64,000 nt of DNA from an uncultured Caldilineales bacterium (GCA_964460135.1 CAYWPZ010000001.1:7469-71468); one strand, 5' to 3'; positions 4,615-64,000 are shown, counted from the first letter of the stretch. Notes: generated by a model from the letters alone, not told the origin. Translations and numbers: made by a program.

Positions 4615-5568
4615 ATGCCCACGCTCTCCGTTCTTATCCCGGCCCACAACGAGGCCGAAAACATCCACGAGCTTGTCGCTCGCACGGCCCAGGCCTTCGC
4701 CGCCCTGGAGGTGGCGGGCGAATTGGTGTTGGTGGACGACGGCAGCACGGACGGGACCGCCGAGCAGGTAGAAACACTTCAAGCCGGTCACCCCTGGTTG
4801 CGGCTGATCCGCCACCGCCGCAACCGGGGTCTCACCGCCGCCCTGCGCTCTGGCTTCCGCGCTGCCCAGGGCGATTACATCCTCTTCCTCCCCGCCGACC
4901 TGGAATCGGACCCGGCCGAGGATGTGCCCAAGCTCTACCACAAACTCCTGGAAGGCTACGACGTGGTTTCGGGCTGGCGACAGGGCCGCGACGATGGCAA
5001 ACAACTGGCTTCCGGCATCTACAACGTTGTCAGCCGGCGTCTGTTCGCGGTGCGCGTCCACGACGCCAACTGGATCAAGGGCTTTCGCCGTGAGGTCATC
5101 GCCGCCCTGCCGCCCTTGCGCTCGGACTGGCACCGCTTCCTGCTTCACATCGCCGCCGACCAGGGCTTTCGGGTGGGAGAGACGCCCACGAACTGGTATC
5201 CGCGCAGGGCCGGGCGCACGCATTTTGGCTTCAGCCGCATCCCCATCTCGCTGCTCGATGTCATCGTCATCCGCTTCTTGCTCACCTTCAGCTCGCGGCC
5301 CATGCGTTTCTTTGGCGGCCTCGGCCTGAGCTCCTTCGCCATCGCCGCTTTCACCACCCTCTTCCTTGCCTACCTCTGGTTCTTCCAGGAACAGACGCAG
5401 AAACGGCCGGTCTTCTGGGCCGCCCTCTTCCTGGCCCTGGCCGGGCTGCTGTTCTTCCTCGTCGGCTTCCTGGCCGAACTCATCGTCGCCCAGGGCGACC
5501 GCCTGAGCGAGTTGGAAGAACGGTTGGCAGAGGTGGATCGGGAGACAGGGGGACGGGGAGACAGGTAG
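4615..5568 (+). CDS. GT2 family polyprenol-phosphate glycosyltransferase (GtrB/ArnC/DPM1-like) with C-terminal TM helices
   Basis: N-terminus LSVLIPAHNEAENI, then a VDDGSTDGT DxD-region, plus two C-terminal hydrophobic helices. Confidence 0.85.
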   Translation: MPTLSVLIPAHNEAENIHELVARTAQAFAALEVAGELVLVDDGSTDGTAEQVETLQAGHPWLRLIRHRRNRGLTAALRSGFRAAQGDYILFLPADLESDPAEDVPKLYHKLLEGYDVVSGWRQGRDDGKQLASGIYNVVSRRLFAVRVHDANWIKGFRREVIAALPPLRSDWHRFLLHIAADQGFRVGETPTNWYPRRAGRTHFGFSRIPISLLDVIVIRFLLTFSSRPMRFFGGLGLSSFAIAAFTTLFLAYLWFFQEQTQKRPVFWAALFLALAGLLFFLVGFLAELIVAQGDRLSELEERLAEVDRETGGRGDR

Positions 5569-5606
5569 ACCGGGAGACCAGTTGCCACTTGCCACCCGCC
5601 ACCCCC

Positions 5607-6824
5607 ATGCGCCTCGGCGTCCTCACCCACAACTACCCGCGCTTCGACGGCGACTTCTCCGGCCATTTCATCCAGCAACTGTGCGAAGAACTGGCCCGGC
5701 AGGGCGACGAGGTGCACGTGCTGGCGCCGTTCGACGCCGCCTACCGGCCCCAAATCCTGGCCGGAGCCAATCCCAAGCTACATCTCTATCGCTATGCCTG
5801 GTCCGATGGCGCCCACAAACTGGGCTATATGCGGACGATGGCGGCCGATATGCAGATGCGGCTGAACACCTACGCCCTCAGCCCGCTGCTCTTCGCCCGC
5901 GGCATCCAGACCACGCTGCGGGTAGCCCGCCAACAGCGGCTGCAATTGCTCCATGCCCACTGGGCTTTGCCCAACGGCTTCATCGCCGCCGTCGTCAGCC
6001 GCCGTCTGCGCCTGCCGTTGGTGGTCAGCATCCCCGGCAGCGATGCCCTGGTGGCGGGGCAGAATCCCCTGTTCCGGCGCATGGCGCGCTTCGCCTTCGC
6101 TCAGGCCGCCCTGATCACCGCCAATGCTGAGGTCTTGGGCGAGGTGGCGGTAGAGGAACTGGGCGCGGACCCGGCCAAATTCGAATTGATCATCTACGGC
6201 GTCGATCCCAACCGGCTGCAGCCTGATCCCACCGGCGTGGCGGCGCTCCGTCAACGCTTGGGCATCCCCGCTGGCGCCTTCGTCTTTCTGGCCGTGGGGC
6301 GCATGGTCTACAAGAAGGGTTTCGACATCCTCTTGCATGCCCTGGCCCAGTTGGGCGAGGCCGGCCAGGGCTGCCATACCATCCTCGTGGGCGAGGGCGA
6401 TCTCTGGCAGGAGTGGCAGGAGCTTGCGCGCACGCTAGGGCTGGCCAACCTGCACTGGGTGGGCAACATCCCCACCGACCAAATGTCCGCCTTCTACAAC
6501 GCCGCCGACGCCCTGGTGATGCCCAATGTGCGCCGGCCGGCCACCGGACTGGGGGTGACGGTGTTGGAGGCCATGGCCTGCGGCAAAGCCATCATCGCCA
6601 GCAACACGGCCGGGAACACCCTGGTGGTAGAGCCGGGCGTCAACGGCCTGATCACCCCCGAAGGCGACGCCCCGGCCCTGGCCGCGGCCATGCTCGATCT
6701 CGCTGGCGACCCTGCCCGCGCCCAACGCCTGGGACAGGCCAGCCGCCATCTGATCGAGACCCGCTTTGGCTGGCCGCACCTCGCCGCCCACTATCGGCAG
6801 CGGTTCCAGGCCATGTTGCCCTGA
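5607..6824 (+). CDS. GT4 (group 1) glycosyltransferase
   Basis: GT-B layout with a C-terminal EX7E-like region (GLGVTVLEAMACGKAIIAS). First in-frame ATG at 5607; the ORF-track start at 5589 is a TTG. Confidence 0.8.
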   Translation: MRLGVLTHNYPRFDGDFSGHFIQQLCEELARQGDEVHVLAPFDAAYRPQILAGANPKLHLYRYAWSDGAHKLGYMRTMAADMQMRLNTYALSPLLFARGIQTTLRVARQQRLQLLHAHWALPNGFIAAVVSRRLRLPLVVSIPGSDALVAGQNPLFRRMARFAFAQAALITANAEVLGEVAVEELGADPAKFELIIYGVDPNRLQPDPTGVAALRQRLGIPAGAFVFLAVGRMVYKKGFDILLHALAQLGEAGQGCHTILVGEGDLWQEWQELARTLGLANLHWVGNIPTDQMSAFYNAADALVMPNVRRPATGLGVTVLEAMACGKAIIASNTAGNTLVVEPGVNGLITPEGDAPALAAAMLDLAGDPARAQRLGQASRHLIETRFGWPHLAAHYRQRFQAMLP

Positions 6825-11786: not shown

Positions 11787-11811
11787 GGGCTTTCCACGCC
11801 TGAATACAAAG

Positions 11812-11840
11812 GGACAGGCTTGGCGCCTGTCCCCTTTTCG
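11812..11840 (+). terminator. Rho-independent terminator after dnaA
   Basis: 9-bp stem GGGACAGGC / GCCTGTCCC, loop TTGGC, followed by CTTTTC. Confidence 0.7.
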
Positions 11841-11848
11841 CGTCCGGC

Positions 11849-11901
11849 TGTGGAAAACCCGCCCAAAACTGTGGAAAACCCGGCCCAAAAGTGGAAAACC
11901 G
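11849..11901. promoter_or_regulatory. Cluster of three DnaA-box-like 9-mers (TGTGGAAAA = reverse complement of TTTTCCACA) spaced exactly 21 bp apart; candidate oriC element
   Basis: cTGTGGAAAAcc at 11849, cTGTGGAAAAcc at 11870 and aGTGGAAAAcc at 11891. These match the TTWTNCACA DnaA-box consensus with two-helical-turn phasing. Confidence 0.6.
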
Positions 11902-11909
11902 GCCCCTGT

Positions 11910-24990: not shown

Positions 24991-25089
24991 AGTTGGTTAT
25001 TGGGTATTGGTAATTAGTTATTGGCAATTGGTAATTGATATTTCGTGTTGAGTATTAGCGATTACGCAAGACGTATTACTCGTCACTCA
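24991..25089. repeat. Heptanucleotide tandem array (~14 units, ATTGGTA-like, decaying toward 25089) that exactly fills the spacer between the small ORF stop and the tpiA start
   Basis: Heptamers TGGTTAT TGGGTAT TGGTAAT TAGTTAT TGGCAAT TGGTAAT TGATATT TCGTGTT GAGTATT AGCGATT ACGCAAG ACGTATT ... Confidence 0.75.
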
Positions 25090-25380
25090 TCACGTTTCAC
25101 GCACCACCTCTCCACCTGCCACTTCTTCATGAACCAGCTTTTTTCGCGCATCGAAGCGCAGATCCAGTTCGATGCGCTGGAAACAGCGATTCTGGCCGCT
25201 GCCGACGATGACTTTGTGGACGCTGTAGCCGCCAGAGTCGTAGTCGATCGAGAGGTCGTTGTCGAGATTGACGCGGACAGGGATGATCTCGCCGCAGCGA
25301 CGACACCGAACCTGTAGGCGATAGCCGCGGTCAGGGGCGGCAGCAGGGGAGGGGGAGAAGAGGCGGCGAAGGAAGTTCAT
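25090..25380 (-). CDS. Small hypothetical protein (96 aa) with CxxC..C zinc-ribbon-like spacing, sitting between pgk and tpiA
   Basis: ATG at 25380 with AGGAGG 10 nt upstream. Placed inside the gap-pgk-tpiA operon, and its codon usage is consistent with the neighbours. Contains RCRRCGE and NRCF. Confidence 0.45.
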   Translation of the reverse strand: MNFLRRLFSPSPAAAPDRGYRLQVRCRRCGEIIPVRVNLDNDLSIDYDSGGYSVHKVIVGSGQNRCFQRIELDLRFDARKKLVHEEVAGGEVVRET

Positions 25381-26564: not shown

Positions 26565-26581
26565 GTGTTTGCTCCGGGAAT

Positions 26582-26732
26582 GGTAGACAAGTAGACAGGC
26601 AGACGAGTAGAGAAGGGCGGGTCGCAAGCGGCAAGATAGACGGGCAGTGCGCGAACGCACCTTTGCCGCCTTGCTCGATTCAGAGATTTTGCCGCGTTAC
26701 CCTGTCTACCTATTCCTTGTCTACTTGTCTAC
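26582..26732. repeat. gap-pgk intergenic region carrying GTAGACA-type heptamer repeats that form a long-range inverted repeat (arm 26582-26599 vs arm 26701-26732)
   Basis: GGTAGACAAGTAGACAGG is complementary to CCTTGTCTACTTGTCTAC and CCTGTCTACC about 100 nt away. The arms lie right after the gap stop and right before the pgk start. Confidence 0.6.
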
Positions 26733-26739
26733 ACGATTG

Positions 26740-32858: not shown

Positions 32859-33003
32859 GATGGCTGGCCACGGCAACGATGGTTGGTTGATCGAGAAACG
32901 CCAGGCGTGAGAGGTCAAGATCGCTGCCACCTTCTCGCGCCTCTCGCCCCAGGCTTCGCGACTGTTCTTGTACCGCCGCAGTAAGGATGCCAGCGCCCGC
33001 ACC

Positions 33004-43225: not shown

Positions 43226-44191
43226 ATGGCCCGCGCTGTCACCGTCCCAACTCGCACGCCCGCCGACGAGTTACGTTCCCTGCTCGATCAGAGCGAGAGA
43301 CTGGCCGTCGGTATGGCCGGGGCCTCGCCCGACCAGGCCCGGCAATTGTTGACCGCGCTCGATCGCATTGTCATTCTCTTTCCCGAATTGGAGGCGGCCG
43401 GGGTTGATCTACAGCCAGAGCGAGGCCGCTGGCAGGGCGTGCAGGGGGCGGTGCGACGACATCGCCGTAGCCTGCAGGCAGCCCTGAAGCCCGCCGGCGG
43501 CTTGGCGACCGCCCGCGCCCAACAGCCCACCCCCCCGCCTACCGCCAATTGGTGGTGGCAGACCGACCTCATCCTGGCTGCAGAGACGCGACGGAAAACC
43601 CTCACCTGGATGGCGGTCACAGGCGGCCTGATTCTCGCCCTCGCCCTCGGCTACTGGCTCTTCAACCGCCTCTTCCCGGTCGATCCGCTCGTCGCCGAGC
43701 TCTATCGCCTCCGCAACGAAGCGCAGCAGGCTCTGATCGAGGGCGAGCTGGCGCCGGCGTTGGCCGCCTACGAGACCGCCGCCGCCCTCAGCCCGGACGA
43801 CCCCGAAACCCTGGCCTGGCTGTCGGCCCTGTACGACGCCGCCGGGCGAGACGCCGACGCTGAGGCTGCACAGGCGCAGCTACGCCCCCTACGGCCCGCT
43901 TTCGAGGTCGATTCGCTACTGGCGTCGGCCTACCTCGGCCTGCGATGGCCGGACGAGGCCAAAATCTACATCGACCAGGCCCTTGCCGCCAACCCCAGCC
44001 ACGTCATTTCCCTCATCACCGCCGCCGACATCAGCCAAGCGCGCGGCGAGATTCAAGAAGCCATGACCTATCTCGAACGGGCCGACGAGGCTGCCGGCGC
44101 CCAAAGCCTCTTCCGTGAGCAGGCCGTCATCCGCGTCCGCCTTGCCCAATTACTCCAACAGCCGCTGTTGCCCACGCCGGCGGGGGAGTAA
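43226..44191 (+). CDS. TPR-repeat membrane-anchored protein
   Basis: One TM helix (LTWMAVTGGLILALALGYWLF) and TPR-like Ala-rich repeats. Confidence 0.55.
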   Translation: MARAVTVPTRTPADELRSLLDQSERLAVGMAGASPDQARQLLTALDRIVILFPELEAAGVDLQPERGRWQGVQGAVRRHRRSLQAALKPAGGLATARAQQPTPPPTANWWWQTDLILAAETRRKTLTWMAVTGGLILALALGYWLFNRLFPVDPLVAELYRLRNEAQQALIEGELAPALAAYETAAALSPDDPETLAWLSALYDAAGRDADAEAAQAQLRPLRPAFEVDSLLASAYLGLRWPDEAKIYIDQALAANPSHVISLITAADISQARGEIQEAMTYLERADEAAGAQSLFREQAVIRVRLAQLLQQPLLPTPAGE

Positions 44192-44274
44192 TTGGAGATT
44201 GGTTATTGGTTATTGGAGATTGTGTTTTCCCCATCTGTGTCGTTCATTTCGCAATCCGCAATCCGAAACTCGCA
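44191..44274. repeat. 12 consecutive heptamers (ATTGGAG ATTGGTT ATTGGTT ATTGGAG ... CGCAATC-type) spanning exactly from stop codon to start codon
   Basis: 84 nt = 12 x 7. The start codon at 44275 is in phase with the heptamer array. Confidence 0.75.
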
Positions 44275-44844
44275 ATGCCTCATCCAGACCTCCTCACCCC
44301 CTACCCTGTCCATCTGGCCGGTGTGACGCGCTATCTGCCACGCGTCGAGATCGCCCCCGGCGTCGTCATCGCCATCCTCAACATCCTCGGCGACACCGAA
44401 CTGACCGAAGCTGTGGCCGCGGCACTGGTGCAGCGCCTCCCCACCGGGGCCGAGTTCCTGGTCACGCCCGAGGCCAAGAGCATCCCGCTCTGCTACGCTA
44501 TGTCGGTCAAGAGCGGCCTGCCCTACGCCGTCCTGCGCAAGAGCTTCAAGCCCTACATGCTCGGCTCCATCAGCGAAGAAGTGCTGAGCATCACCACCGG
44601 CGCGCCGCAGAAGCTGTGGTTGGATGGCAAAGACATCGCGCGGGTGCGAGGCAAGCGCGTGGTCATCGTCGATGACGTGATCTCCACCGGCGGCACCCTG
44701 CGCGGGGCCAGAAGCCTGTTGGAGCAAGCCGAGGCCGACGTGATCGCCAGCGTCGCCATCCTGACCGAAGGCGATGAATCGGCCTGGCGAGATGTGATCA
44801 CCCTCGGCAACCTGCCGGTTTGGTTCGACCGCCCAGCATCGTAA
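44275..44844 (+). CDS. Phosphoribosyltransferase family protein
   Basis: PRPP-binding motif VVIVDDVISTGGT. Confidence 0.75.
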   Translation: MPHPDLLTPYPVHLAGVTRYLPRVEIAPGVVIAILNILGDTELTEAVAAALVQRLPTGAEFLVTPEAKSIPLCYAMSVKSGLPYAVLRKSFKPYMLGSISEEVLSITTGAPQKLWLDGKDIARVRGKRVVIVDDVISTGGTLRGARSLLEQAEADVIASVAILTEGDESAWRDVITLGNLPVWFDRPAS

Positions 44845-44906: not shown

Positions 44907-45974
44907 ATGTTCGACAAACTCGACCAGATCGAAGCCAGCTACGACGCCCTCGAAGCCCGGATGGGCGACCCGGCCATTGCCGCCGATTATCAGGAAGCGG
45001 CGAAGTTGGCGCGCGAGCAGGCTGAGCTGCGGGACATCGTCGCCAGCTATCGCCAGCTGAAGCGGGTCATGCAGGAATTGGCCGACGCCCGCCAGCTGTT
45101 GGAGGCCGAGGAGGATGCTGATTTCCGGGCGCTGGCCGAAGCCGAAGTAGGCGCCCTGGAAGCCGAACAGGGGCGCGTCGAGCAGGAGCTGCGGGCTTTG
45201 CTGCTGCCGCGCGACCCGCGCGATGCCAGAAATGTGATCGTCGAAATCCGGGCCGGGACGGGCGGCGACGAAGCCGGGCTGTTTGCAGCCGACCTCTATC
45301 GCATGGTCAACCGCTATGCCGAGAAGCGAAACTGGAAGGCGGCGCTGCTTTCGAGCAGCGAAAGCGGCATTGGCGGCTTCAAGGAAGTGATCTTCGAGGT
45401 GCGCGGGGAGGGCGCCTACAGCCGGTTGAAGTACGAATCGGGGGTTCATCGCGTGCAGCGTGTGCCCGAAACCGAGTCGCAAGGCCGCATCCACACCTCC
45501 ACCGCCACCATGGCCGTGCTGCCCGAGGCCGACGAGGTGGAGGTGAACATCGCCCCTGAAGAGATTCGCATCGATGTTTTTCGCGCTACCGGCCCCGGCG
45601 GCCAGAGTGTGAACACGACCGACAGCGCTGTGCGCATCACCCATCTGCCCACCGGCCTGGTGGTGCAATGTCAGGACGAAAAAAGCCAGCTCCAAAACCG
45701 CCAGCGCGCCCTGACCATCCTGCGCGCCCGGCTGTACGATGCCGAAATGCAGCGCCAGCACGAGGCCATCAGCGCCGACCGGCGGGCGCAGGTCGGCTCG
45801 GCCGAGCGCAGCGAGAAAATCCGCACCTACAACTTCCCCCAAAACCGCGTCACCGACCACCGCGTGGGCGTGAGCATCTACAATCTGCCGGCGGTGTTGG
45901 ATGGCGATCTCGACGTCTTCATCGACGAGTTGGCCGCCGCCGATCAGTCGGCGCGGCTGCAGGTGGGGGAGTAG
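44907..45974 (+). CDS. prfA: Peptide chain release factor 1
   Basis: GGQ motif (GPGGQSVNTT) and RF1-type P-x-T region (RVQRVPETESQGRIHTS). Confidence 0.93.
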   Translation: MFDKLDQIEASYDALEARMGDPAIAADYQEAAKLAREQAELRDIVASYRQLKRVMQELADARQLLEAEEDADFRALAEAEVGALEAEQGRVEQELRALLLPRDPRDARNVIVEIRAGTGGDEAGLFAADLYRMVNRYAEKRNWKAALLSSSESGIGGFKEVIFEVRGEGAYSRLKYESGVHRVQRVPETESQGRIHTSTATMAVLPEADEVEVNIAPEEIRIDVFRATGPGGQSVNTTDSAVRITHLPTGLVVQCQDEKSQLQNRQRALTILRARLYDAEMQRQHEAISADRRAQVGSAERSEKIRTYNFPQNRVTDHRVGVSIYNLPAVLDGDLDVFIDELAAADQSARLQVGE

Positions 45975-46015
45975 GAAGTAGGGAGTATGGAGTATGGAGT
46001 AGGGAGTAGCAGGGA
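45968..46015. repeat. KGGAGTA heptamer x6 spanning the prfA stop and prmC start
   Basis: ggagta ggaagta gggagta tggagta tggagta gggagta, an array of SD-like GGAG units. Confidence 0.7.
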
Positions 46016-48190: not shown

Positions 48191-48224
48191 AGTAACAGTC
48201 AACAATCAACAGTCAACAATCACC
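48191..48224. repeat. RTCAACA heptamer x5 directly abutting the lipoprotein start codon
   Basis: AGTAACA GTCAACA ATCAACA GTCAACA ATCACC|ATG. Confidence 0.7.
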
Positions 48225-48902
48225 ATGCCCACCCGCACACCACGCCCACTCATCGTCCTTTGTGAGGCGGCTGTCTTCGTCGCCCTGCTGGCGCTGGCCG
48301 CCTGCGCACCGGGCGGATGGCTGCCCGTTCCGCCGGCGCCGCTCGCCCCAACGACGGCGCCCCCTGCGGCCACGGCCACACCGGCTGCAGCCACATCATC
48401 ACCAACCATGACGCCTGCCACGACCGACCGCTGGTGCGAAATCAACTTGTGGACGCCCTATCCCTTCACCACGCCGCTGCCTCCCTTTACAGCCACGCCC
48501 ATCGACGGCCTCTATGCCTATTTCGACACGGTGCATGCGGCCAGCCGCACCCCCTGCCGTCGTTGCCCGCCCTATCCGCCCCTGGCCGGCGTCTGGATGC
48601 TGAAGCTGGACAAAGGCATCTTCCGCGTCTTCCATCCCAACACCGGCTGGCGCACGCTCGGCTCGTTCGCGGTCGATGGCGAGCGCGTGACCTTCTTCAA
48701 TGACCCCAACTGCCATCTGGCGGTGGGCGTCTTTGGCTGGCAGGCGGTCGAGGGCGGCCTGAGCATGCAATTGGTGCAGGATGACTGCGAGCTGGGCACC
48801 CGCGCCACGCTGTTCACGGGCGGCCTCTGGCAGAGTTGTCAGCCCCCCAACCAGGAGGCGGCCGTCAGCGGGCACTGGCCGACGCCGCCCGGCTGCGAAT
48901 GA
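48225..48902 (+). CDS. Hypothetical lipoprotein with Pro/Thr-rich linker and Cys-rich domain
   Basis: Lipobox LALAACAPG. The stop overlaps the next gene's start (ATGA). Confidence 0.55.
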   Translation: MPTRTPRPLIVLCEAAVFVALLALAACAPGGWLPVPPAPLAPTTAPPAATATPAAATSSPTMTPATTDRWCEINLWTPYPFTTPLPPFTATPIDGLYAYFDTVHAASRTPCRRCPPYPPLAGVWMLKLDKGIFRVFHPNTGWRTLGSFAVDGERVTFFNDPNCHLAVGVFGWQAVEGGLSMQLVQDDCELGTRATLFTGGLWQSCQPPNQEAAVSGHWPTPPGCE

Positions 48903-51793: not shown

Positions 51794-51816
51794 CACGGAT
51801 TTATGTGACATGATTG

Positions 51817-51858
51817 GTGGCAAGTGGCAGGTGGCAAGTGCCAGGTGTCAAGTAACAC
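51817..51858. repeat. RGTGGCA heptamer x6 immediately after the ydiJ stop
   Basis: GGTGGCA AGTGGCA GGTGGCA AGTGCCA GGTGTCA AGTAACA. The last units form the hairpin CAGGTG..CACCTG. Same family as the array at 62808 and, in reverse complement, 5581-5606. Confidence 0.7.
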
Positions 51859-51927
51859 CTGCCGCCTGCGACCCGCCCCCGCTCCTTGTCTACCGGTTTC
51901 CTTGCCTACTCATCTACATCCACCCCG

Positions 51928-52381
51928 ATGAATGCCATCGAAGTCCAGGCCCTGCGCTGCGTCTACCAGGCCAAGACGGGCATCCTCCGCCGCGCGGCCA
52001 AGGAAGTCGTGGCGGTGGAGGGCGTCAGTTTTGCCGTCGCGCAGGGCGAGTTGCTTGGCTTGCTCGGTCCCAACGGCGCCGGCAAAACGACCACGATCAA
52101 GATGCTGACCACGTTGCTGATCCCGACCAGCGGCGCCGCAACCATCCTCGGCTTTGATCTGGTCAAGCAGGCCGAGAAGGTGCGCCCGCTATCTCCTGGC
52201 CCCCTACTGGGCTGCCCGCGCCCTCCACGCCACCTCCAGCGGCCAGACTTCGCTGGCCGACGCCGATCTCAGTTGGGCCATCCTCAGCGCCCTCAGCCTG
52301 ATCTACCTCGCGCTTTCGCGCTGGCTATTCCTCCGGATGCTTCATAAAGCCCGCGTCGAGGCGACGTTGGGGGCGATGTGA
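51928..52381 (+). pseudogene. Remnant of an ABC transporter: ATPase N-terminal ~87 aa (Walker A) joined out of frame to a permease-like C-terminal TM tail
   Basis: GPNGAGKTT ... ILGFDLVKQAEKVR, then the frame is lost near 52186. The second frame (52154-52381) encodes ..LSWAILSALSLIYLALSRWLF..., typical of a last TM helix. No Q-loop, signature or Walker B is present. Confidence 0.6.
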
Positions 52382-52458
52382 GCGAGATCGAGGTGTGATT
52401 CGTACAACTGTTCGATTTCGAGTATACTTGGGTACATCTTACTTGGGGTCAGAATTCT

Positions 52459-53457
52459 ATGTCTCAAGAGAGCGACCTGCCGTTCGGGAGCGAGTTCTCT
52501 CCCAGCCAAATCGACTTATCCGAAATCCTGGAAATTGTCGAAACGTACTCGGGGGATGTGCAGGCGTTGCAGGACGCGATCCAGGCTCGCTATTTCAGCG
52601 CACACGGCGGTGGAAGCGCCCGCAATCAGAAGACCCTGGCGATGAACTGCCGGCTGGGGATGAAGGCATACGGCATCATCGACGAGACAGCCACGATCAC
52701 AGCCTTTGGACGCAGGCTCTATCGAATCAGAGAGAATGGGCCGGCCTTGTACACCCTTCTGGCCAGACACATCCTGCTGCACTTGAAGGGCATGACGTTG
52801 GTGCAATGCATTCAAGATATGACGGCGGCCGGCGAGGAAGTCAATTTGACGACGCTGCGCCAGGCTTTGGCCGAGCGCGGCATCCACTATCCGGCGGGTG
52901 GCAAACATCCCAGTATGATGCGTTTGTGGCTTGTCAAAGCAGGCGTGTTTGTGGGCGCTCGTTGGCAGGTGGACAACCTGAGATTGAAAGAAGTGCTGGG
53001 CATCAACCCAGCCGACTTCGACACCCTTGCCCCTCTGACAGCCGCACAACGTTGTTTCTTGCTGGCGCTGGCCAATACAGGCCTCAGCACGCCGCAGCCG
53101 GCGAATGAGATTGCCCGGCTCGCTGCGGCAACTTATGGCGTTCGCTTCCCCGAGAAGAGCTTGCCCAAACTCGTGCTCAACGCCCTGGTCGAGGCTGGAT
53201 ACATTACCGCCACGAAGACGACCGAAGGTCGCGGGGCGAAACCCTTCCTGGTGTCACCCACCGAAAAACTGGTCCACGATGTGGTCGAGCCGCTGCTAGA
53301 ACAGATGAAGTCGCAGACGGATATGAAGCTGGTTCAGTTGATGCGCAAACCGCTTGCCGACGTCCTCGCCGAGCTTGACGCCCAAGACCGGTATATCGCT
53401 GGATTGGCGCTCGAAGCTCCTCCATCGTCATGGTCGATCGACGCGACCTCGATCTGA
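52459..53457 (+). CDS. Hypothetical 332-aa protein on the low-GC island; candidate restriction endonuclease or specificity partner of the adjacent methyltransferase
   Basis: ATG at 52459. Local GC is about 55% against a 68% background. It lies directly upstream of, and co-oriented with, the beta-class MTase. No family motif is recognisable by eye. Confidence 0.45.
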   Translation: MSQESDLPFGSEFSPSQIDLSEILEIVETYSGDVQALQDAIQARYFSAHGGGSARNQKTLAMNCRLGMKAYGIIDETATITAFGRRLYRIRENGPALYTLLARHILLHLKGMTLVQCIQDMTAAGEEVNLTTLRQALAERGIHYPAGGKHPSMMRLWLVKAGVFVGARWQVDNLRLKEVLGINPADFDTLAPLTAAQRCFLLALANTGLSTPQPANEIARLAAATYGVRFPEKSLPKLVLNALVEAGYITATKTTEGRGAKPFLVSPTEKLVHDVVEPLLEQMKSQTDMKLVQLMRKPLADVLAELDAQDRYIAGLALEAPPSSWSIDATSI

Positions 53458-53550
53458 TCCGAAACAAGCCAGTGCACATCGTCGACGCGTTCAACCGCGA
53501 AGCAAGTCATGCGATGACTCTCAAGAAGCTGGAAATTTAGCGAGGAAGTC

Positions 53551-54688
53551 ATGAGCGCCGAACACACGTCTACAGCTACCCTTTTCCTCGAAACCAGCCT
53601 CGGAAAAATCTATCAGGGCGATTCACTCCGCTTTCTCGCTGATCTGGAACCTGCCAATGCCGATCTGATCATAACCAGCCCTCCCTTCGGTTTGGTCAGG
53701 AAGAAAGAATATGGCAATGTCGAAGCCAACCAGTATCTAGACTGGTTCAAACCCTTTGCTGCACAATTTCACCGTGTGCTGAAGGAAACGGGCAGTCTTG
53801 TGATCGACATCGGCGGGGCCTGGAATCCGGGAACGCCGACGCGCAGCCTCTATCACTTCAAGCTGCTGATCATGCTTTGTGAGGAATTCGGCTTTCATCT
53901 CGCCCAGGATTTCTACTGGTGGAATCCTTCCAGGCTGCCCACGCCCGCCGAATGGGTGACAGTACGCCACATTCGCGTCAAAGACGCCATTGATACCGTT
54001 TGGTGGCTTTCCAAGACCCCCCTGGCCCAAGGCGAGCAATCGGCGTGTGCTGCAACCCTACAGCAACAGTATGCAAGAACTGCTCAAAAAGGGCTATCGA
54101 GCCAAAAAACGCCCCTCCGGCCACGACATCAGCGATAAATTCGCGGTGGACAACGGCGCTGCTATCCCTCCCAACCTGATCGCCATTCCAAATACCGAGA
54201 GCAACAGCCACTACCTCCGCTATTGTCAGGAACGAGCCATCACACCTCACCCCGCCCGCTACCCTGCCGCCCTGCCCGAATACTTCATTCGTATGCTGAC
54301 CGATAAAGGCGACCTGGTGTTCGATCCATTTGCCGGCAGCTGCGTCACCGGCGAAGTCGGCGAACGGCTTCAGCGACGCTGGTTGTGCGTTGAACTGGTC
54401 GAAGAGTACTTGCTCGGCGCCCGCGGTCGATTCGAACAAACTGGCATTCCCGAACCGGAGATCAAAACCGCAAGCGATGGGGATGACAACTATTATCGCA
54501 TGCCGCACCCTGGCATCCTCTGGAACGGCGCCACGGAGACGCCATTGGCTGCCGATGGCGGCAAGGCGCGGCATTTTTCCGGCGATCCGGCCAGAAGCGG
54601 CAGCCGGACGACGCCAGCACATGCTCCTCCAAGTCGCTCCTCCGCTCCCCTTCTCGACCTGCTTCGAGAGCAAACGTCTGATGCCTGA
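53551..54688 (+). pseudogene. Beta-class N4-cytosine/N6-adenine DNA methyltransferase (SPPF motif IV before FxGxG motif I), interrupted by a +1 frameshift in a C6 homopolymer (54017-54022)
   Basis: Frame 1 (53551-54138) carries IITSPPFG. Frame 2 (53990-54688) carries VFDPFAGSCVTG. Removing one C from gaCCCCCCtgg gives a continuous ..[20 protein letters not shown].. product. ATG is preceded by GAGGAAG. Confidence 0.7.
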
Positions 54689-54718
54689 TCAGTTCACTCA
54701 TCATCTCATCTTGCCCCG

Positions 54719-54768
54719 CCTCTCCGCCTCCCTCCGCATCTTCTTCTCCGGCGCCTGGCTCTCCCACA
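54719..54768. repeat. 50-bp direct repeat, left copy
   Basis: cctctccgccTccctccgcatcttcttctccggcgcctggctctccCaca, 48/50 identical to the copy at 55472-55521. Confidence 0.85.
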
Positions 54769-54798
54769 GACGCGGGTGAGAACGGCAGCGGCGGAGCC

Positions 54799-55116
54799 TC
54801 ATGCTGCCGCAGTGAGCGGCCGAATGCGGAACAATTCATCACTATGGCGCTGTTTGGATTCCCACAGGTCTCTTGCATGTTGCGCATTCAACCAGAATTC
54901 GGGAGAATTTCCGAAGAGGCGCGACAAACGTAGCGCCATCAACGGCGTCATGGAGCGCTCCTCTCTCAACAGTTCGTGAATCGTCTGCCGCGACACGCCC
55001 AGTTCCGCTGCCAGCGCACTGGCCGATAGCCCGTAGTCCGGCATGAAATCCTCGCGCAGCATCGCGCCAGGATGTGTTGGTGGAATTTGACGAGGCTCGT
55101 TATTTGCGAATGACAT
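54799..55116 (-). CDS. higA: HigA-family antitoxin (XRE-type HTH)
   Basis: Sequence ..LSASALAAELGVSRQTIHELLREERSMTPLMALRLSRLFGNSPEFWLNAQ.. ATG at 55116 behind GAGGAGAAAG, 10 nt after the higB stop. Confidence 0.85.
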   Translation of the reverse strand: MSFANNEPRQIPPTHPGAMLREDFMPDYGLSASALAAELGVSRQTIHELLREERSMTPLMALRLSRLFGNSPEFWLNAQHARDLWESKQRHSDELFRIRPLTAAA

Positions 55117-55126
55117 GGCTTTCTCC

Positions 55127-55408
55127 TCAATGATAATCGGTGACTTCGACATCGAAAGCGTCGCCGTCCACGAAACGAAAGCAAATGCGCCACTGATCAT
55201 TGATGGCGATCGACCACTGGCCTTCTCGGTCTCCCTTCAAGGCGTGCAAGCGGTTGCTCGGCGGTACTTTGAGATCATTCAAGTTCTGTGCCAGATCGAT
55301 GTACTCCAGCCTTCGCAGCGCCAGCTTCGCCAAATCTGGCGGCAGCCGCTTTGACTTGCCGCTGACATACAGCCGCTGCGTTTCTCTGTCAGCGAACGTC
55401 TGAATCAT
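55127..55408 (-). CDS. higB: HigB toxin (RelE/ParE superfamily)
   Basis: 93 aa, [14 protein letters not shown]...[21 protein letters not shown]. Toxin-first order as in HigB-HigA. Confidence 0.85.
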
Positions 55409-61715: not shown

Positions 61716-61756
61716 ATCACGAATGGCACGAATGGACGAATGACACGAATTCTCGA
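61716..61756. repeat. CACGAATGG 8/9-mer tandem repeat x4 in the ATPase-permease intergenic region
   Basis: cacgaatgg cacgaatgg acgaatga cacgaattc. It shares a CGAATGAATTC-like core with the 18959-18997 element. Confidence 0.6.
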
Positions 61757-62807: not shown

Positions 62808-62856
62808 AGTCGCAAGTGGCAGGTCGCAAGTGGCAGGTCGCAGGTGGCAGGTCGCA
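62808..62856. repeat. RGTSGCA heptamer x7 immediately after the permease stop
   Basis: AGTCGCA AGTGGCA GGTCGCA AGTGGCA GGTCGCA GGTGGCA GGTCGCA, followed by a CTTTTCGTT stretch and a distal complementary CCACCTGCCACCC at 62927. Confidence 0.7.
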
Positions 62857-62979
62857 AGCTTGTCCTTTTCGTTGCCCGCAAGTCAGGCTCTGAGTGAAAC
62901 GGAGGATCGCCGATCAAAAACAACTTTCCACCTGCCACCCTTTTCTCTCTCACCCGTTCCCTTGAAGGAGGAACAAAAA

Positions 62980-64000
62980 ATGTCAAAACGAACGCTTTTT
63001 TCGATGCTGTTGATCGGTCTGCTCGTGGTCGTGTTGGCCGCTTGCGCCGCCCAGCAGCCGGCCCCGGCCGAGCAACCAACCCAAGCCCCAGCCAAGGAAG
63101 CCACCCAGTCCCCGGCTGAAGACGCGACGGCCGCCCCAGCCGCCGAAGAACCATCCGGCGAAAAGCAAACTTACTACGAGGTCAACGCCCTGATCAACCT
63201 GCCGTACTTCATCGACCATCAGGTGGGCCTCTACTATGCCGGCAAGGTCTTCGATGTCAACGCGCCGCACGTTGGCCCGGTGGACTATGACATGACGGCC
63301 ATGGTCAACACCATGGAGCAGGCCATCGCCACCAATCCGCAGGGTATCAACATCGTCGGCTTCGACCCAGCCCTCAAGCCCTCGATCGACGCCGCTGTGG
63401 ATGCCGGCATCCCCGTCGTCACCCTCGACGCCGAGGTTTATGGCTCCAAGCGCCTGACCTTCTTGGGCACCGGCAACTACAACGCCGGTCGCGTGGGCGG
63501 CAAGCTGCTGGCCGAGGCCATCGGCGGCAAAGGTAAGGTGGCGCTGCTGACCAAAGTCGGACAGAGCAATCTGGAGGAGCGCATCCAGGGCTACAAGGAT
63601 GAATTCGCTGAGAACTACCCCGATATCGAATTGGTGCAGATCATCGATGACCAGTCCAATTCGGCCATTGCTGCTGACGGCCTCAAGGCGGTGCTGCAGC
63701 GCGAGCCGGACCTGGCGGGCGTGGGCTGCGTGGAAGCGGCGGGCGGAGTCGGCGCAGCTACGGCTGCTAACGAGCTGGGTTTGAAAGGCAAGCTGGTCAT
63801 CGTCTCGATGGATCGCGACGACGGCACCCTCCAATTCATCGAAGATGGCACCATCTACGCCTCGGTGGCGCAACAGAGCGCGCTGATGACCTTCGTCGGC
63901 ACCATGCTCATGCACGGCTTGCACAACAACCCCGTGCCCATCGTGGCCGACAACAAGACTGCCGGCGTCGTGCCCATGCCCGAAAGTGTGGACACCGGCG
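62980..64000 (+). CDS. Sugar ABC transporter substrate-binding lipoprotein (periplasmic binding protein type I, RbsB-like); 3'-partial
   Basis: ATG at 62980 behind GAAGGAGG. Lipobox LVVVVLAACA. PBP-like alternating beta/alpha pattern. The frame stays open to the window end. Not in the ORF track because no stop falls inside the window. Confidence 0.8.
   Translation, partial: MSKRTLFSMLLIGLLVVVLAACAAQQPAPAEQPTQAPAKEATQSPAEDATAAPAAEEPSGEKQTYYEVNALINLPYFIDHQVGLYYAGKVFDVNAPHVGPVDYDMTAMVNTMEQAIATNPQGINIVGFDPALKPSIDAAVDAGIPVVTLDAEVYGSKRLTFLGTGNYNAGRVGGKLLAEAIGGKGKVALLTKVGQSNLEERIQGYKDEFAENYPDIELVQIIDDQSNSAIAADGLKAVLQREPDLAGVGCVEAAGGVGAATAANELGLKGKLVIVSMDRDDGTLQFIEDGTIYASVAQQSALMTFVGTMLMHGLHNNPVPIVADNKTAGVVPMPESVDTG

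What the first reader, a model, noticed from the sequence alone, without database searches (positions are those of the whole stretch)
24991..25089. Pervasive heptanucleotide tandem-repeat arrays in 5'UTRs and stop-to-start spacers
At least nine junctions carry runs of 4-14 units of a 7-nt repeat:
- 24991-25089, ATTGGTA-type x14, upstream of tpiA.
- 44191-44274, twelve heptamers filling exactly the 84 nt from stop to start, with the ATG in phase.
- 45968-46015, GGAGTA-type x6, at the prfA/prmC junction.
- 48191-48224, GTCAACA x5, abutting an ATG.
- 51817-51858 and 62808-62856, RGTGGCA x6-7, just after stop codons.
- 5581-5606, the reverse complement of the same family, abutting the GT4 ATG.
- 26582-26732, GTAGACA-type.
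- 61716-61756, a 9-mer.

This resembles the STRR heptamer repeats of heterocystous cyanobacteria but occurs here in a 68% GC genome. The frequent in-phase abutment to start codons hints at a role in translation initiation or in slippage-based variation.
Basis: seen in the sequence. Interest (0 to 1): 0.7.

Follow-up and report, generated by a model that had tools for sequence, protein, structure and literature searches.

The report
Heptamer repeat arrays between operon genes
The short spacers between genes in this uncultured Chloroflexota bacterium are largely built from tandem 7- or 8-base repeats, a real but already known kind of bacterial simple-sequence repeat, and their strand orientation suggests they act on the messenger RNA rather than as genetic switches.

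Summary
A local autocorrelation scan finds 9 period-7 and 7 period-14 segments, against about 1.1 and 0.6 in shuffles. Other periods that are not multiples of 3 sit at background. Eight of the nine period-7 segments lie in spacers between co-directional genes (gap|pgk, orf96|tpiA, prfA|prmC, an ABC-transporter operon and others).

Corrections: two arrays have 8-nt units, some unit counts are overstated, and the window GC is 65%, not 68%.

This is the known class of intergenic heptanucleotide repeats (STRR/LSSR). It is already described in Nostoc, in Xanthomonas (named there as a genus over-represented in heptameric intergenic repeats; its high GC is from memory), in Beggiatoaceae and in Chloroflexus. 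I rate it a new member of a known kind.

New detail from relatives:
- Stop-proximal arrays are G-rich on the sense strand (14/14). Start-proximal arrays are C-rich and G-poor (16/17) and usually replace the Shine-Dalgarno site.
- Many arrays are inverted pairs that form hairpins.
- The gap|pgk hairpin is kept in six lineages, although the repeat unit changes three times.
- Near-identical strains carry identical arrays, and the flanking genes are housekeeping genes, so nothing points to phase variation.

Best reading: slippage-born arrays shaped by mRNA-level constraints into intercistronic hairpins and SD-free leaders. The function is inferred, not shown.

The parts
5540..5579 (+). 8-nt array CGGGAGAC x5. 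It is G-rich on the sense strand and spans the stop codon (5566-5568) of the GT2 glycosyltransferase gene.
   Evidence: TRF: period 8, 5.1 copies. Pfam. Composition G=21, C=5.
5581..5606 (+). Heptamers GTTGCCA CTTGCCA CCCGCCA CCCCC that abut the ATG (5607) of the GT4 gene. There is no SD. The units are the reverse complement of the GTGGCAA family.
   Evidence: Composition G=4, C=15.
24991..25037 (-). Sense-strand array AATTACC/AATAACC, about 6.5 units, abutting the tpiA ATG (24990). It is G-free, predicted unpaired, and there is no SD.
   Evidence: TRF. Fold. Accessibility 0.82. The ortholog in L162 is a perfect AACCAAT x5.
25038..25089 (-). Decayed stop-proximal array downstream of orf96. It is the ortholog of GTGAAAC x10 in the 94% relative L162.
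   Evidence: Period-7 segment 24993-25101. Spacer comparison.
26575..26733 (-). Hairpin in the gap|pgk intercistronic spacer. Its arms are inverted 8-mer arrays. On the sense strand the 5' arm is GTAGACAA (26716-26732) and the 3' arm is TTGTCTAC (26583-26615). A free GGAG SD and the pgk ATG (26564) follow.
   Evidence: dG -66.7 kcal/mol, z -4.4 to -5.1, 0 of 200 shuffles as stable. The structure is conserved in 6 lineages with 3 different arm units.
44191..44222 (+). Array ATTGGAG/ATTGGTT x4.6 that starts in the stop codon of the TPR gene. It is G-rich and contains no C.
   Evidence: TRF.. Absent in relative L082.
44245..44277 (+). Array CGCAATC-type x4. Its last unit (CGCAATG) contains the ATG (44275) of the phosphoribosyltransferase gene. 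It is C-rich and there is no SD.
   Evidence: A positional and unit ortholog (CGCAACY x4 ... CGCCATG) is present in L082.
45967..46009 (+). Purine-rich array GGGAGTA x6. It contains the prfA stop codon (45972-45974), SD-like GGAG motifs, the prmC ATG (45987), a second out-of-frame ATG (45994), and the first 7 prmC codons.
   Evidence: TRF: 88% matches. Pfam PrmC_N starts at residue 15. The array is absent at this junction in L082, L168 and L169.
48194..48224 (+). Array GTCAACA/ATCAACA, about 4.3 units, abutting the ATG (48225) of a hypothetical gene. It lies at the 3' end of a 181-nt spacer after an SMR gene and is predicted unpaired.
   Evidence: TRF. Fold. Accessibility 0.73. Pfam SMR.
51817..51876 (+). 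Array GTGGCAA/GTGGCAG x5.3 (51817-51853) plus an inverted C-rich partner CTGCCGCCTGCGAC (51858-51876). Together they form a hairpin starting 24 nt after the stop codon of the FAD-oxidase/Fe-S gene.
   Evidence: TRF. Fold dG -44.6 kcal/mol, z -2.8.
61718..61750 (+). 9-nt array CACGAATGG x3.8 in the spacer between the ABC ATPase and permease genes.
   Evidence: TRF. Pfam.
62808..62856 (+). Array GTCGCAA/GTGGCAG x6.9 that begins directly after the permease stop codon. A short inverted partner CCACCTGCCACCC lies at 62929-62941. A pyrimidine-rich tract, a strong SD and the ATG (62980) of the binding-protein gene follow.
   Evidence: TRF. Sequence and translation. The predicted 10-bp pairing is not significant for the spacer as a whole (z +0.35).

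Best explanation
The arrays are simple-sequence repeats with 7-nt units, some with 8 nt, that arise in place by replication slippage (inferred). They persist only outside reading frames, because a 7- or 8-nt unit would break a frame. In this Anaerolineae-like lineage they make up much of the intercistronic spacer DNA.

They are not free-running junk. Their orientation and arrangement follow the direction of transcription, so what is retained is filtered at the mRNA level (inferred). Three arrangements recur:

1. A solitary C/A-rich, G-poor array runs up to the AUG and replaces the Shine-Dalgarno site (tpiA, and the gene at 48225). This gives a largely unpaired leader of the same composition as the roughly two thirds of genes in this clade that lack an SD. 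Initiation there is presumably SD-independent, through capture of single-stranded, pyrimidine/A-rich RNA by the 30S subunit or protein S1.

2. A G-rich array starts at the upstream stop codon and pairs with a C-rich array that ends at the downstream start codon (GT2|GT4, TPR|PRTase). This hairpin bridges stop to start. It could couple translation of the two cistrons, because the terminating ribosome would melt the 5' arm.

3. An array hairpin is followed by a free SD (gap|pgk, permease|binding protein). It probably acts as an intercistronic stem-loop that stabilises or insulates mRNA segments and sets expression ratios within the operon.

Shown: the repeat excess, the positions, the strand polarity, the predicted hairpins, and their conservation in relatives.
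Inferred: generation by slippage, and all effects on translation or mRNA stability.
For: - Period-7 and period-14 excess that is confined to spacers.
- All window arrays lie between co-directional genes of apparent operons.
- Sense-strand polarity in the window and five relatives: 14/14 stop-proximal arrays have G>C (p=1.2e-4) and 16/17 start-proximal arrays have C>G (p=2.7e-4). The polarity follows gene direction on both DNA strands.
- Leaders in the clade: only about one third of 112 genes have GGAG/GAGG. Leaders not overlapped by an array (SD and non-SD together) average G 7.1 and C 10.6 per 30 nt, and many non-SD ones are visibly C-rich. Array leaders average G 4.9 and C 10.4.
- The arrays in the tpiA and 48225 leaders are unpaired in the MFE fold.
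- The gap|pgk hairpin is retained in lineages with 100, 94, 90, 86, 82 and 82% PGK identity (z = -5.1, -3.5, -6.3, -6.1, -1.6, -4.0). It uses three unrelated arm units: GTAGACAA/TTGTCTAC, CAGGGAT/AGCCCCT and GGTAACTT/CCAATCYA. The structure is kept while the sequence is replaced.
- Positional and unit conservation of the AACCAAT array (L162) and the CGCAAYC array (L082).
- The 86% relative has no heptamers before tpiA but keeps a hairpin plus a G-free leader.
- Published parallels: TAACTGA arrays that replace SD sites (PMC4679880); inverted heptamer pairs and conserved positions in Xanthomonas (PMC4692102); heptamer deletions that change reporter expression in Nostoc (10.1101/2022.06.06.494920).
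Against: - There are no expression data, so every functional step is inferred.
- The higher predicted accessibility of array-led start regions is only a trend (median 0.63 against 0.48; p about 0.1, n=12). Four array leaders are predicted to be paired.
- Sense strands do not fold better than antisense strands, so there is no G-U signature of RNA-level selection.
- Several spacer folds are no better than shuffles (TPR|PRTase z +0.9, GT2|GT4 z 0.0, permease|SBP z +0.35).
- Arrays turn over fast. They are absent at prfA|prmC and TPR|PRTase in relatives where those genes overlap or lie adjacent without an array. That fits dispensability.
- The arms of one hairpin are not independent observations, so the polarity p-values overstate the number of independent events. 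There are about 17 spacers, one of them an exception.
Confidence: 0.55

Rival explanations
1. Neutral by-product. Replication slippage with a preference for 7-nt units creates arrays wherever selection allows, that is, outside reading frames. The arrays have no function, and their positions and shapes reflect only what is tolerated.
For: - Unit sequence, copy number and purity differ between relatives, and arrays appear and disappear.
- Many arrays are decayed.
- There is no folding advantage of sense over antisense.
- The literature attributes heptamer excess to polymerase slippage (Mrazek 2007, as summarised in PMC4679880 and PMC4692102).
Against: - A DNA-level neutral process should place arrays in either orientation. 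Instead 30 of 31 arrays follow a transcription-linked polarity, with opposite skews at the two ends of the same spacer.
- Complementarity of the gap|pgk arms is kept through three unit replacements.
- Tolerance filtering alone could still produce the polarity, so this rival overlaps with the best explanation.
Confidence: 0.25
2. Binding sites for a protein that reads heptad-spaced motifs on RNA or DNA, such as a global post-transcriptional regulator, a Csp- or S1-like protein, or a nucleoid protein. This has been proposed for the TAACTGA and Nostoc heptamers.
For: - The 7-nt period is strict, and each unit has a conserved 4-5-nt core with 2-3 variable positions.
- A limited vocabulary of unit families recurs at unrelated loci in the clade: ATTGGAG/CTCCAAT, GTGAAAC/GTTTCAC, GTGGCAR/YTGCCAC.
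- The same proposals appear in PMC4679880 and 10.1101/2022.06.06.494920.
Against: - At least six unrelated unit families occur in 64 kb, and both orientations occur, so no single sequence-specific binder fits.
- 8- and 9-nt units behave in the same way.
- The unit at gap|pgk is replaced between lineages while the architecture stays.
- No candidate protein was identified.
Confidence: 0.1
3. Contingency (phase-variation) loci. Changes in unit number switch or tune expression of the adjacent genes at high frequency.
For: - The prfA|prmC array contains the prmC start codon and 7 codons, so a gain or loss of one unit downstream of the ATG would shift the frame.
- Two ATG-bearing units lie 7 nt apart.
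- SSRs are the classic substrate for phase variation (PMC4679880, introduction).
Against: - The flanking genes are housekeeping genes (gap, pgk, tpiA, prfA, prmC, transporters), not surface or virulence genes.
- Arrays are identical in the independent assemblies of the window's own strain (W, L166, L167) and in those of its 94% relative (L162, L163, L164). In the same comparison a 27-nt repeat does vary.
- Most arrays lie outside ORFs and outside promoter spacers.
- The sample is small, and the strains compared differ by at most 1 SNP per 13 kb.
Confidence: 0.05
4. Dispersed mobile palindromic elements (REP/BIME- or MITE-like) that inserted into the spacers.
For: - Inverted arms that form hairpins in intergenic transcribed regions.
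- A weak Y1-transposase ORF lies near the locus in L163.
- A 46-nt element is embedded in heptamer arrays in L162.
Against: - There is no shared consensus or shared flanks between loci.
- Arms are tandem arrays whose unit differs from locus to locus.
- Arrays sit at orthologous positions and grow or shrink in place.
- The 46-nt element is absent from the window.
Confidence: 0.05

Closest known systems
Long simple sequence repeats with 5-11-nt units, heptanucleotides above all (Mrazek et al. 2007), including cyanobacterial STRR heptamers (Mazel et al. 1990, from memory)
   Same: - Tandem 7-nt units.
- Strong statistical excess.
- Intergenic location.
- Many loci per genome.
- Sporadic phylogenetic distribution: in my control of 160 loci from many phyla, only about 15 carry 2 or more arrays.
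- Similar unit sequences, for example CAACAGT and TTGGT-type.
   Different: - The host is an uncultured Chloroflexota (Anaerolineae-like) bacterium with 65% GC.
- Arrays are short (4-7 units) and heterogeneous.
- 8-nt units are mixed in.
- The sense-strand polarity and the stop-to-start architecture were not found described for this class in the papers I read.
GGGAATC heptamer arrays of Xanthomonas campestris and X. axonopodis (Rehm et al. 2015, PMC4692102)
   Same: - High-GC genome (from memory).
- About 4 units per array.
- Intergenic location.
- 70-75 inverted pairs able to form stem-loops.
- Arrays lie between the same genes in related species, but with extensive variation in length and sequence. 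I see the same at gap|pgk and orf96|tpiA.
   Different: - Xanthomonas has one dominant G-rich, G-quadruplex-capable unit.
- Here there are at least six unit families, and only 5540-5579 is G4-capable.
TAACTGA direct repeats of marine Beggiatoaceae, cyanobacteria and Bacteroidetes (MacGregor 2015, PMC4679880)
   Same: - Heptamer arrays of 2-6 units lie immediately upstream of start codons.
- They overlap the expected ribosome-binding site.
- Housekeeping genes are included.
- A translational role has been proposed.
   Different: - That case has a single heptamer in one orientation.
- Here there are many units, and there is a second, stop-proximal G-rich class and hairpin pairs.
- One control locus (Poribacteria, L037) does carry TAACTGA-type units.
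Heptamer-derived satellites of Chloroflexus aurantiacus, (GATAGRA)n (Subirana and Messeguer 2019, PMC6749651)
   Same: - Same phylum.
- Heptamer-based tandem repeats at many loci.
   Different: - Different class (Chloroflexia) and a single unit family.
- They are described only as satellites, without gene-context analysis.
Intercistronic stem-loops and REP/BIME elements that stabilise upstream mRNA segments (E. coli malEFG, Zymomonas gap-pgk; from memory)
   Same: - A hairpin in the spacer of a polycistronic operon.
- The gap|pgk junction is a classic site of segmental mRNA stability control.
   Different: - The arms here are tandem 7/8-mers with locus-specific units.
- There is no dispersed consensus.
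- No stability data exist.

Membership tests
Heptanucleotide LSSR / STRR-type intergenic simple sequence repeats | Head-to-tail tandem copies of a 7-nt unit | tested here: met
   TRF period 7 at 24993, 44191, 44250, 45967, 48194, 51817 and 62809, and 5578-5604 in my own scan. Two further arrays have 8-nt units and one has 9-nt units.
Heptanucleotide LSSR / STRR-type intergenic simple sequence repeats | Longer or more frequent than expected from composition | tested here: met
   9 period-7 segments against 1.1 in shuffles, and 7 period-14 segments against 0.63. Other periods that are not multiples of 3 are at background.
Heptanucleotide LSSR / STRR-type intergenic simple sequence repeats | Predominantly non-coding location, at many loci per genome | tested here: met
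   8 of 9 segments are intergenic in 64 kb. Relatives L162, L165, L168-L171 also carry 2-9 arrays per 9-21 kb. The whole genome was not available.
STRR sensu stricto (heterocystous cyanobacteria) | Cyanobacterial host and the specific units CCCCAGT / TTGGTCA / CAACAGT (recalled from memory) | tested here: not met
   The host is Chloroflexota-like. The best PrfA and PGK relatives are Anaerolineae/Caldilineales MAGs. Only 48194-48224 contains an exact CAACAGT; the other units differ.
Phase-variable contingency SSR | The repeat lies inside an ORF or a promoter spacer, so that unit number switches expression | tested here: not met
   Arrays lie in intercistronic spacers and leaders. Only 45967-46009 includes a start codon and codons.
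Phase-variable contingency SSR | Unit-number polymorphism between closely related strains | tested here: inconclusive
   Arrays are identical in W/L166/L167 and in L162/L163/L164. These assemblies are nearly clonal, and no read-level data were available.
REP/BIME-like dispersed palindromes | A shared consensus sequence repeated at many loci | tested here: not met
   Arm units differ between loci, and the unit at the gap|pgk site differs between lineages.
REP/BIME-like dispersed palindromes | Stem-loop in transcribed intergenic regions of operons | tested here: met
   gap|pgk hairpin z -4.4 to -6.3 in five of six lineages. 51794-51900 has z -2.8. Transcription itself was not tested.
TAACTGA-type start-proximal heptamers | Arrays lie within a few nucleotides upstream of start codons and overlap the RBS, with no canonical SD | tested here: met
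   The arrays at 5607, 24990, 44275 and 48225 abut the ATG, and there is no GGAG/GAGG in positions -22 to -4.
TAACTGA-type start-proximal heptamers | The specific unit TAACTGA in forward orientation | tested here: not met
   None of the window arrays has this unit.

The most novel reading that the evidence does not exclude
The arrays form a modular, slippage-tunable grammar of intercistronic mRNA elements. It has three components:
- A G-rich array anchored at the stop codon.
- A complementary C-rich array.
- A G-poor leader that reaches the AUG.

Together these would set translational coupling, SD-independent initiation and segmental mRNA stability across operons in SD-poor lineages. The same polarity rule appears to hold for heptamer arrays in unrelated phyla: Acidobacteriota loci L014 and L080, and the 'Deltaproteobacteria' locus L076. 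If so, it would give the first general functional rule for the STRR/LSSR heptamers, which have lacked an explanation since about 1990.
Probability: 0.2. Interest if true: 0.65.

Novelty: new member of a known kind. Interest (0 to 1): 0.38.

Why it matters
Intergenic heptamer repeats have been known since about 1990 (STRR). In 2007 they were shown to be the most over-represented class of long bacterial simple repeats. Their function is still unresolved.

This window adds an uncultured Chloroflexota lineage to the list. With its relatives it gives two concrete, testable regularities:
- A transcription-linked polarity: G-rich after stop codons, C-rich and G-poor before start codons.
- Conservation of an array-built hairpin at gap|pgk while the repeat unit itself is replaced.

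If these regularities hold genome-wide and in other phyla, they argue that the repeats are filtered or used at the mRNA level, in translation initiation, coupling or stability, rather than being DNA-level junk or phase switches.

There is also a practical point. Such arrays confuse start-codon calling. In L165, tpiA was called 25 codons too long, and prmC starts inside an array.

Tried and rejected
- Rfam at gathering thresholds on the whole window gave 0 hits, and ARAGORN found 0 tRNAs. The spacers are not known riboswitches, leaders or sRNAs.
- Sense-versus-antisense folding, as a test for G-U-tolerant RNA-level selection, showed no consistent direction.
- Accessibility of start regions (partition function over -100..+50, 113 genes): array-led starts have a higher median, but the difference is not significant (p about 0.1).
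- Cryptic heptamer periodicity in the rest of the non-coding DNA: none after masking the arrays.
- Strain-level copy-number polymorphism. The apparent 97-nt length difference between L162 and L163 is a scaffold gap (Ns). The real differences are confined to a 27-nt repeat plus one SNP.
- The mobile-element idea. The 46-nt element embedded in L162 heptamers occurs only in L162/L163 and not in the window.
- Promoter and terminator consensus scan of 43-53 kb: terminator-like sites are at shuffle level, and none lies at the arrays.
- The genome-contig scan with PrfA found no close relative (best 62% identity). Close relatives came instead from protein searches plus exact-match contig look-ups.
- The Mrazek 2007 paper is not in the library. 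It is cited through PMC4679880 and PMC4692102.

Full report
**Source and context**

The window has 65.3% GC. It comes from an uncultured Chloroflexota bacterium. Its TpiA and PGK occur with identical sequence on JGI metagenome contigs, samples 3300037501 and 3300043177, and those contigs match the window 100% over 6.8-9 kb. The nearest proteins belong to MAGs labelled Anaerolineae, Caldilineae or Chloroflexi. No Rfam family and no tRNA gene is present.

**Check of the observation**

Tandem Repeats Finder reports period-7 arrays at 24993-25037, 44191-44222, 44250-44276, 45967-46009, 48194-48222, 51817-51853 and 62809-62856. It reports period-8 arrays at 5539-5579 and at 26583-26615 / 26716-26732, and a period-9 array at 61718-61750.

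My own local autocorrelation scan gives 9 period-7 and 7 period-14 segments. Block-wise dinucleotide shuffles give means of 1.1 and 0.63. Periods 4, 5, 8, 10, 11, 13, 16, 17, 19 and 20 stay at 0-2 segments, which is background. Multiples of 3 are raised by coding periodicity. Eight of the nine period-7 segments are intergenic. Once the arrays are masked, the rest of the non-coding DNA shows no period-7 signal.

The corrections are minor:
- Two 'heptamer' sites have 8-nt units.
- The tpiA array has about 6.5 clear units plus a decayed neighbour.
- The 44192-44274 spacer is 83 nt and holds two arrays of 4-5 units.
- GC is 65%, not 68%.

**Gene context**

Pfam places every window array between co-directional genes of apparent operons:
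- GT2 | GT4.
- gap | pgk - orf96 | tpiA (minus strand).
- TPR | phosphoribosyltransferase - prfA | prmC - HAD - SMR | hypothetical - FAD-oxidase | truncated ABC ATPase.
- ABC ATPase | permease | lipoprotein binding protein.

Five arrays run up to or into the start codon (5607, 24990, 44275, 45987, 48225). Most stop-proximal arrays begin 0-7 nt from the upstream stop codon or overlap it; the array at 51817 starts 24 nt after it. The prfA|prmC array (GGGAGTA x6) contains the prfA stop, SD-like GGAG motifs, the prmC ATG and its first seven codons. The conserved PrmC_N domain starts only at residue 15.

**Anatomy**

Folding separates two kinds of array.

The first kind is compositionally biased and cannot pair with itself:
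- The tpiA leader, AAUUACC-type, with no G.
- 48194-48224, GUCAACA.
- The purine-only prfA|prmC array.
These are unpaired in the MFE structure.

The second kind is an inverted pair of arrays that forms a long imperfect hairpin:
- The gap|pgk spacer: dG -66.7 kcal/mol, z -4.4 to -5.1, 0 of 200 shuffles as stable.
- 51794-51900: z -2.8.
- Weaker, non-significant pairings in GT2|GT4, TPR|PRTase and permease|SBP.

**Relatives**

Protein searches followed by exact-match contig look-ups gave a graded series. Ranked by PGK identity: L162-L164 (94%), L172 (90%), L165 (86%), L170 and L171 (82%). Ranked by PrfA identity: L082 (90%), L168 (81%), L169 (78%). All of them carry period-7/8 arrays in their spacers.

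- *gap|pgk.* The spacer is a hairpin with tandem-repeat arms in all six lineages (z -5.1, -3.5, -6.3, -6.1, -1.6, -4.0). The arm unit is GTAGACAA/TTGTCTAC in four lineages, CAGGGAT/AGCCCCT in L170 and GGTAACTT/CCAATCYA in L171. The length varies from 82 to 262 nt, and a free GGAG SD always follows. The structure is kept while the repeat unit is replaced.
- *orf96|tpiA.* The 94% relative has a perfect AACCAAT x5 abutting the ATG plus GTGAAAC x10 upstream. The window has decayed versions of both. The 90% relative has a 34-nt remnant. The 86% relative has no heptamers, but it has a 14-bp hairpin and a G-free leader.
- *TPR|PRTase.* The CGCAAYC x4 array, whose last unit carries the ATG, is shared with L082. 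The ATTGGNN array is not.
- *prfA|prmC and TPR|PRTase in more distant relatives.* The genes overlap or lie adjacent without an array in L168 and L169, so those arrays are lineage-specific insertions.
- *Near-identical assemblies.* These carry identical arrays, while a 27-nt repeat elsewhere does vary.

**Polarity**

I took the sense strand of the flanking genes and counted orthologous sites once. All 14 stop-proximal (5') arrays have G>C. Of the 17 start-proximal (3') arrays, 16 have C>G. The one exception is the SD-bearing prfA|prmC array (binomial p = 1.2e-4 and 2.7e-4).

The rule holds for operons on both DNA strands, and the two ends of one spacer have opposite skews. Replication bias or transcription-coupled mutation bias therefore cannot explain it. 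The arms of one hairpin are not independent, so the effective sample is about 17 spacers.

Start-proximal arrays match the general leader composition of the clade. Only about one third of 112 genes have GGAG/GAGG upstream, and many leaders without an SD are visibly C-rich and G-poor. Predicted accessibility of array-led start regions is higher (median 0.63 against 0.48) but not significantly so. Sense strands do not fold better than antisense strands.

**Distribution**

Among 160 loci from many phyla fetched around prfA or prmC (2.1 Mb), most have no period-7 array. About 15 have two or more. These include Anaerolineae L049 (8 arrays in 8.7 kb), Caldilineaceae L013, Acidobacteriota L014 and L080, Poribacteria L037 (TAACTGA-type units), Nitrospirota L045 and a 'Deltaproteobacteria' MAG, L076. 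Several of these show the same layout: a G/T-rich array, then a C/A-rich array that abuts the prfA ATG.

**Comparison with what is known**

Heptanucleotides are the most over-represented long simple repeats in many bacteria, which has been attributed to polymerase slippage (Mrazek 2007, as summarised in PMC4679880 and PMC4692102).

- Xanthomonas has about 185 GGGAATC arrays per genome, mostly of about 4 units, with 70-75 inverted pairs. Positions are conserved between species, but length and sequence vary (PMC4692102).
- Chloroflexus aurantiacus has 22 satellites derived from (GATAGRA)n (PMC6749651).
- TAACTGA arrays sit on the ribosome-binding site in Beggiatoaceae (PMC4679880).
- In Nostoc, deleting heptamer arrays changes reporter output, but the mechanism is unresolved (10.1101/2022.06.06.494920).

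The window is therefore a new member of a known kind. High GC is not a distinguishing feature. It is not STRR in the strict sense, because the host is not a cyanobacterium. It is not REP/BIME, because there is no dispersed consensus. It does not meet the criteria for contingency loci.

**Verdict**

The arrays are real, abundant and non-random. The most likely account has two parts. Slippage generates the arrays. mRNA-level constraints then keep them in three arrangements: SD-free G-poor leaders, stop-to-start bridging hairpins, and hairpins followed by a free SD. The likely roles are SD-independent initiation, translational coupling, and segmental mRNA stability or insulation. These roles are inferred, and a purely 'tolerated junk' reading is not excluded.

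Interest is moderate. The class is known, but the polarity rule and the unit-swapping hairpin make its function testable.

Noticed in passing
window 11787-11909: This convergent spacer holds a terminator-like GC hairpin (GGGACAGGC...GCCTGTCCC followed by CTTTTC). Three copies of a 21-nt unit, CTGTGGAAAACCCGCCCAAAA (11848-11905), follow it.
   Followed up: no
window 51886-55400: GC drops to 0.58-0.60 in this stretch. It holds a truncated ABC ATPase ORF (51886-52347, only the first 52 of 137 profile positions) and a short N6_N4 DNA methylase ORF (53551-54138). It may be an island or a set of decayed genes.
   Followed up: partly
window 25090-25380 (-): A small ORF (96 aa) without any Pfam hit lies between pgk and tpiA. 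It is present at the same place in all relatives examined (96-132 aa).
   Followed up: no
L162 2345-2621: A divergent spacer of the 94% relative holds three higher-order repeats of about 85 nt. Each consists of GTGTTCC-type heptamers plus an embedded 46-nt element (GCGGTGCGCTTAGCGGAGTGAGCAC...). The orthologous window spacer (about 32870-33000) has none, and the element is absent from the window.
   Followed up: partly
L162 7521-7944; L163 8099-8515: A 27-nt tandem repeat is the only region that differs between the near-identical assemblies L162, L163 and L164. L163 also has a weak Y1-transposase ORF just downstream of it.
   Followed up: partly
window 62980-63120: The binding-protein gene starts at ATG 62980, with a strong SD (GAAGGAGG) and a lipoprotein signal peptide (MSKRTLFSMLLIGLLVVVLAAC). 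A 24-nt coding repeat (63061-63116) that encodes a Pro/Ala/Gln-rich linker follows.
   Followed up: partly
L014 9405-9999; L080 9964-9994; L076 9898-10000: Acidobacteriota and 'Deltaproteobacteria' MAG loci show heptamer arrays abutting the prfA ATG. In L014 a G/T-rich upstream array (GTCGTTN) is matched by a C/A-rich start-proximal array (NAACGAC). This is the same polarity as in the window's clade.
   Followed up: partly
It has a GGCGTGAAG/CTTCACGCT hairpin and decayed CACGYTT heptamers that run to the prfA ATG. It follows the same architecture, built from the GTGAAAC unit family.
   Followed up: partly
window 45987-45996: Two ATG-bearing units of the GGGAGTA array lie 7 nt apart. The first ATG is in frame with prmC. 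The second is out of frame (ATG GAG TAG). Loss of one downstream unit would bring the second ATG into frame. This may be a buffer against slippage, or it may be coincidence.
   Followed up: no
L165 11503-12348: The database gene call for tpiA in this relative is 25 codons too long (281 aa against 256 aa), because the G-poor leader is read as coding. Array-like and C-rich leaders can mislead start-codon prediction.
   Followed up: partly
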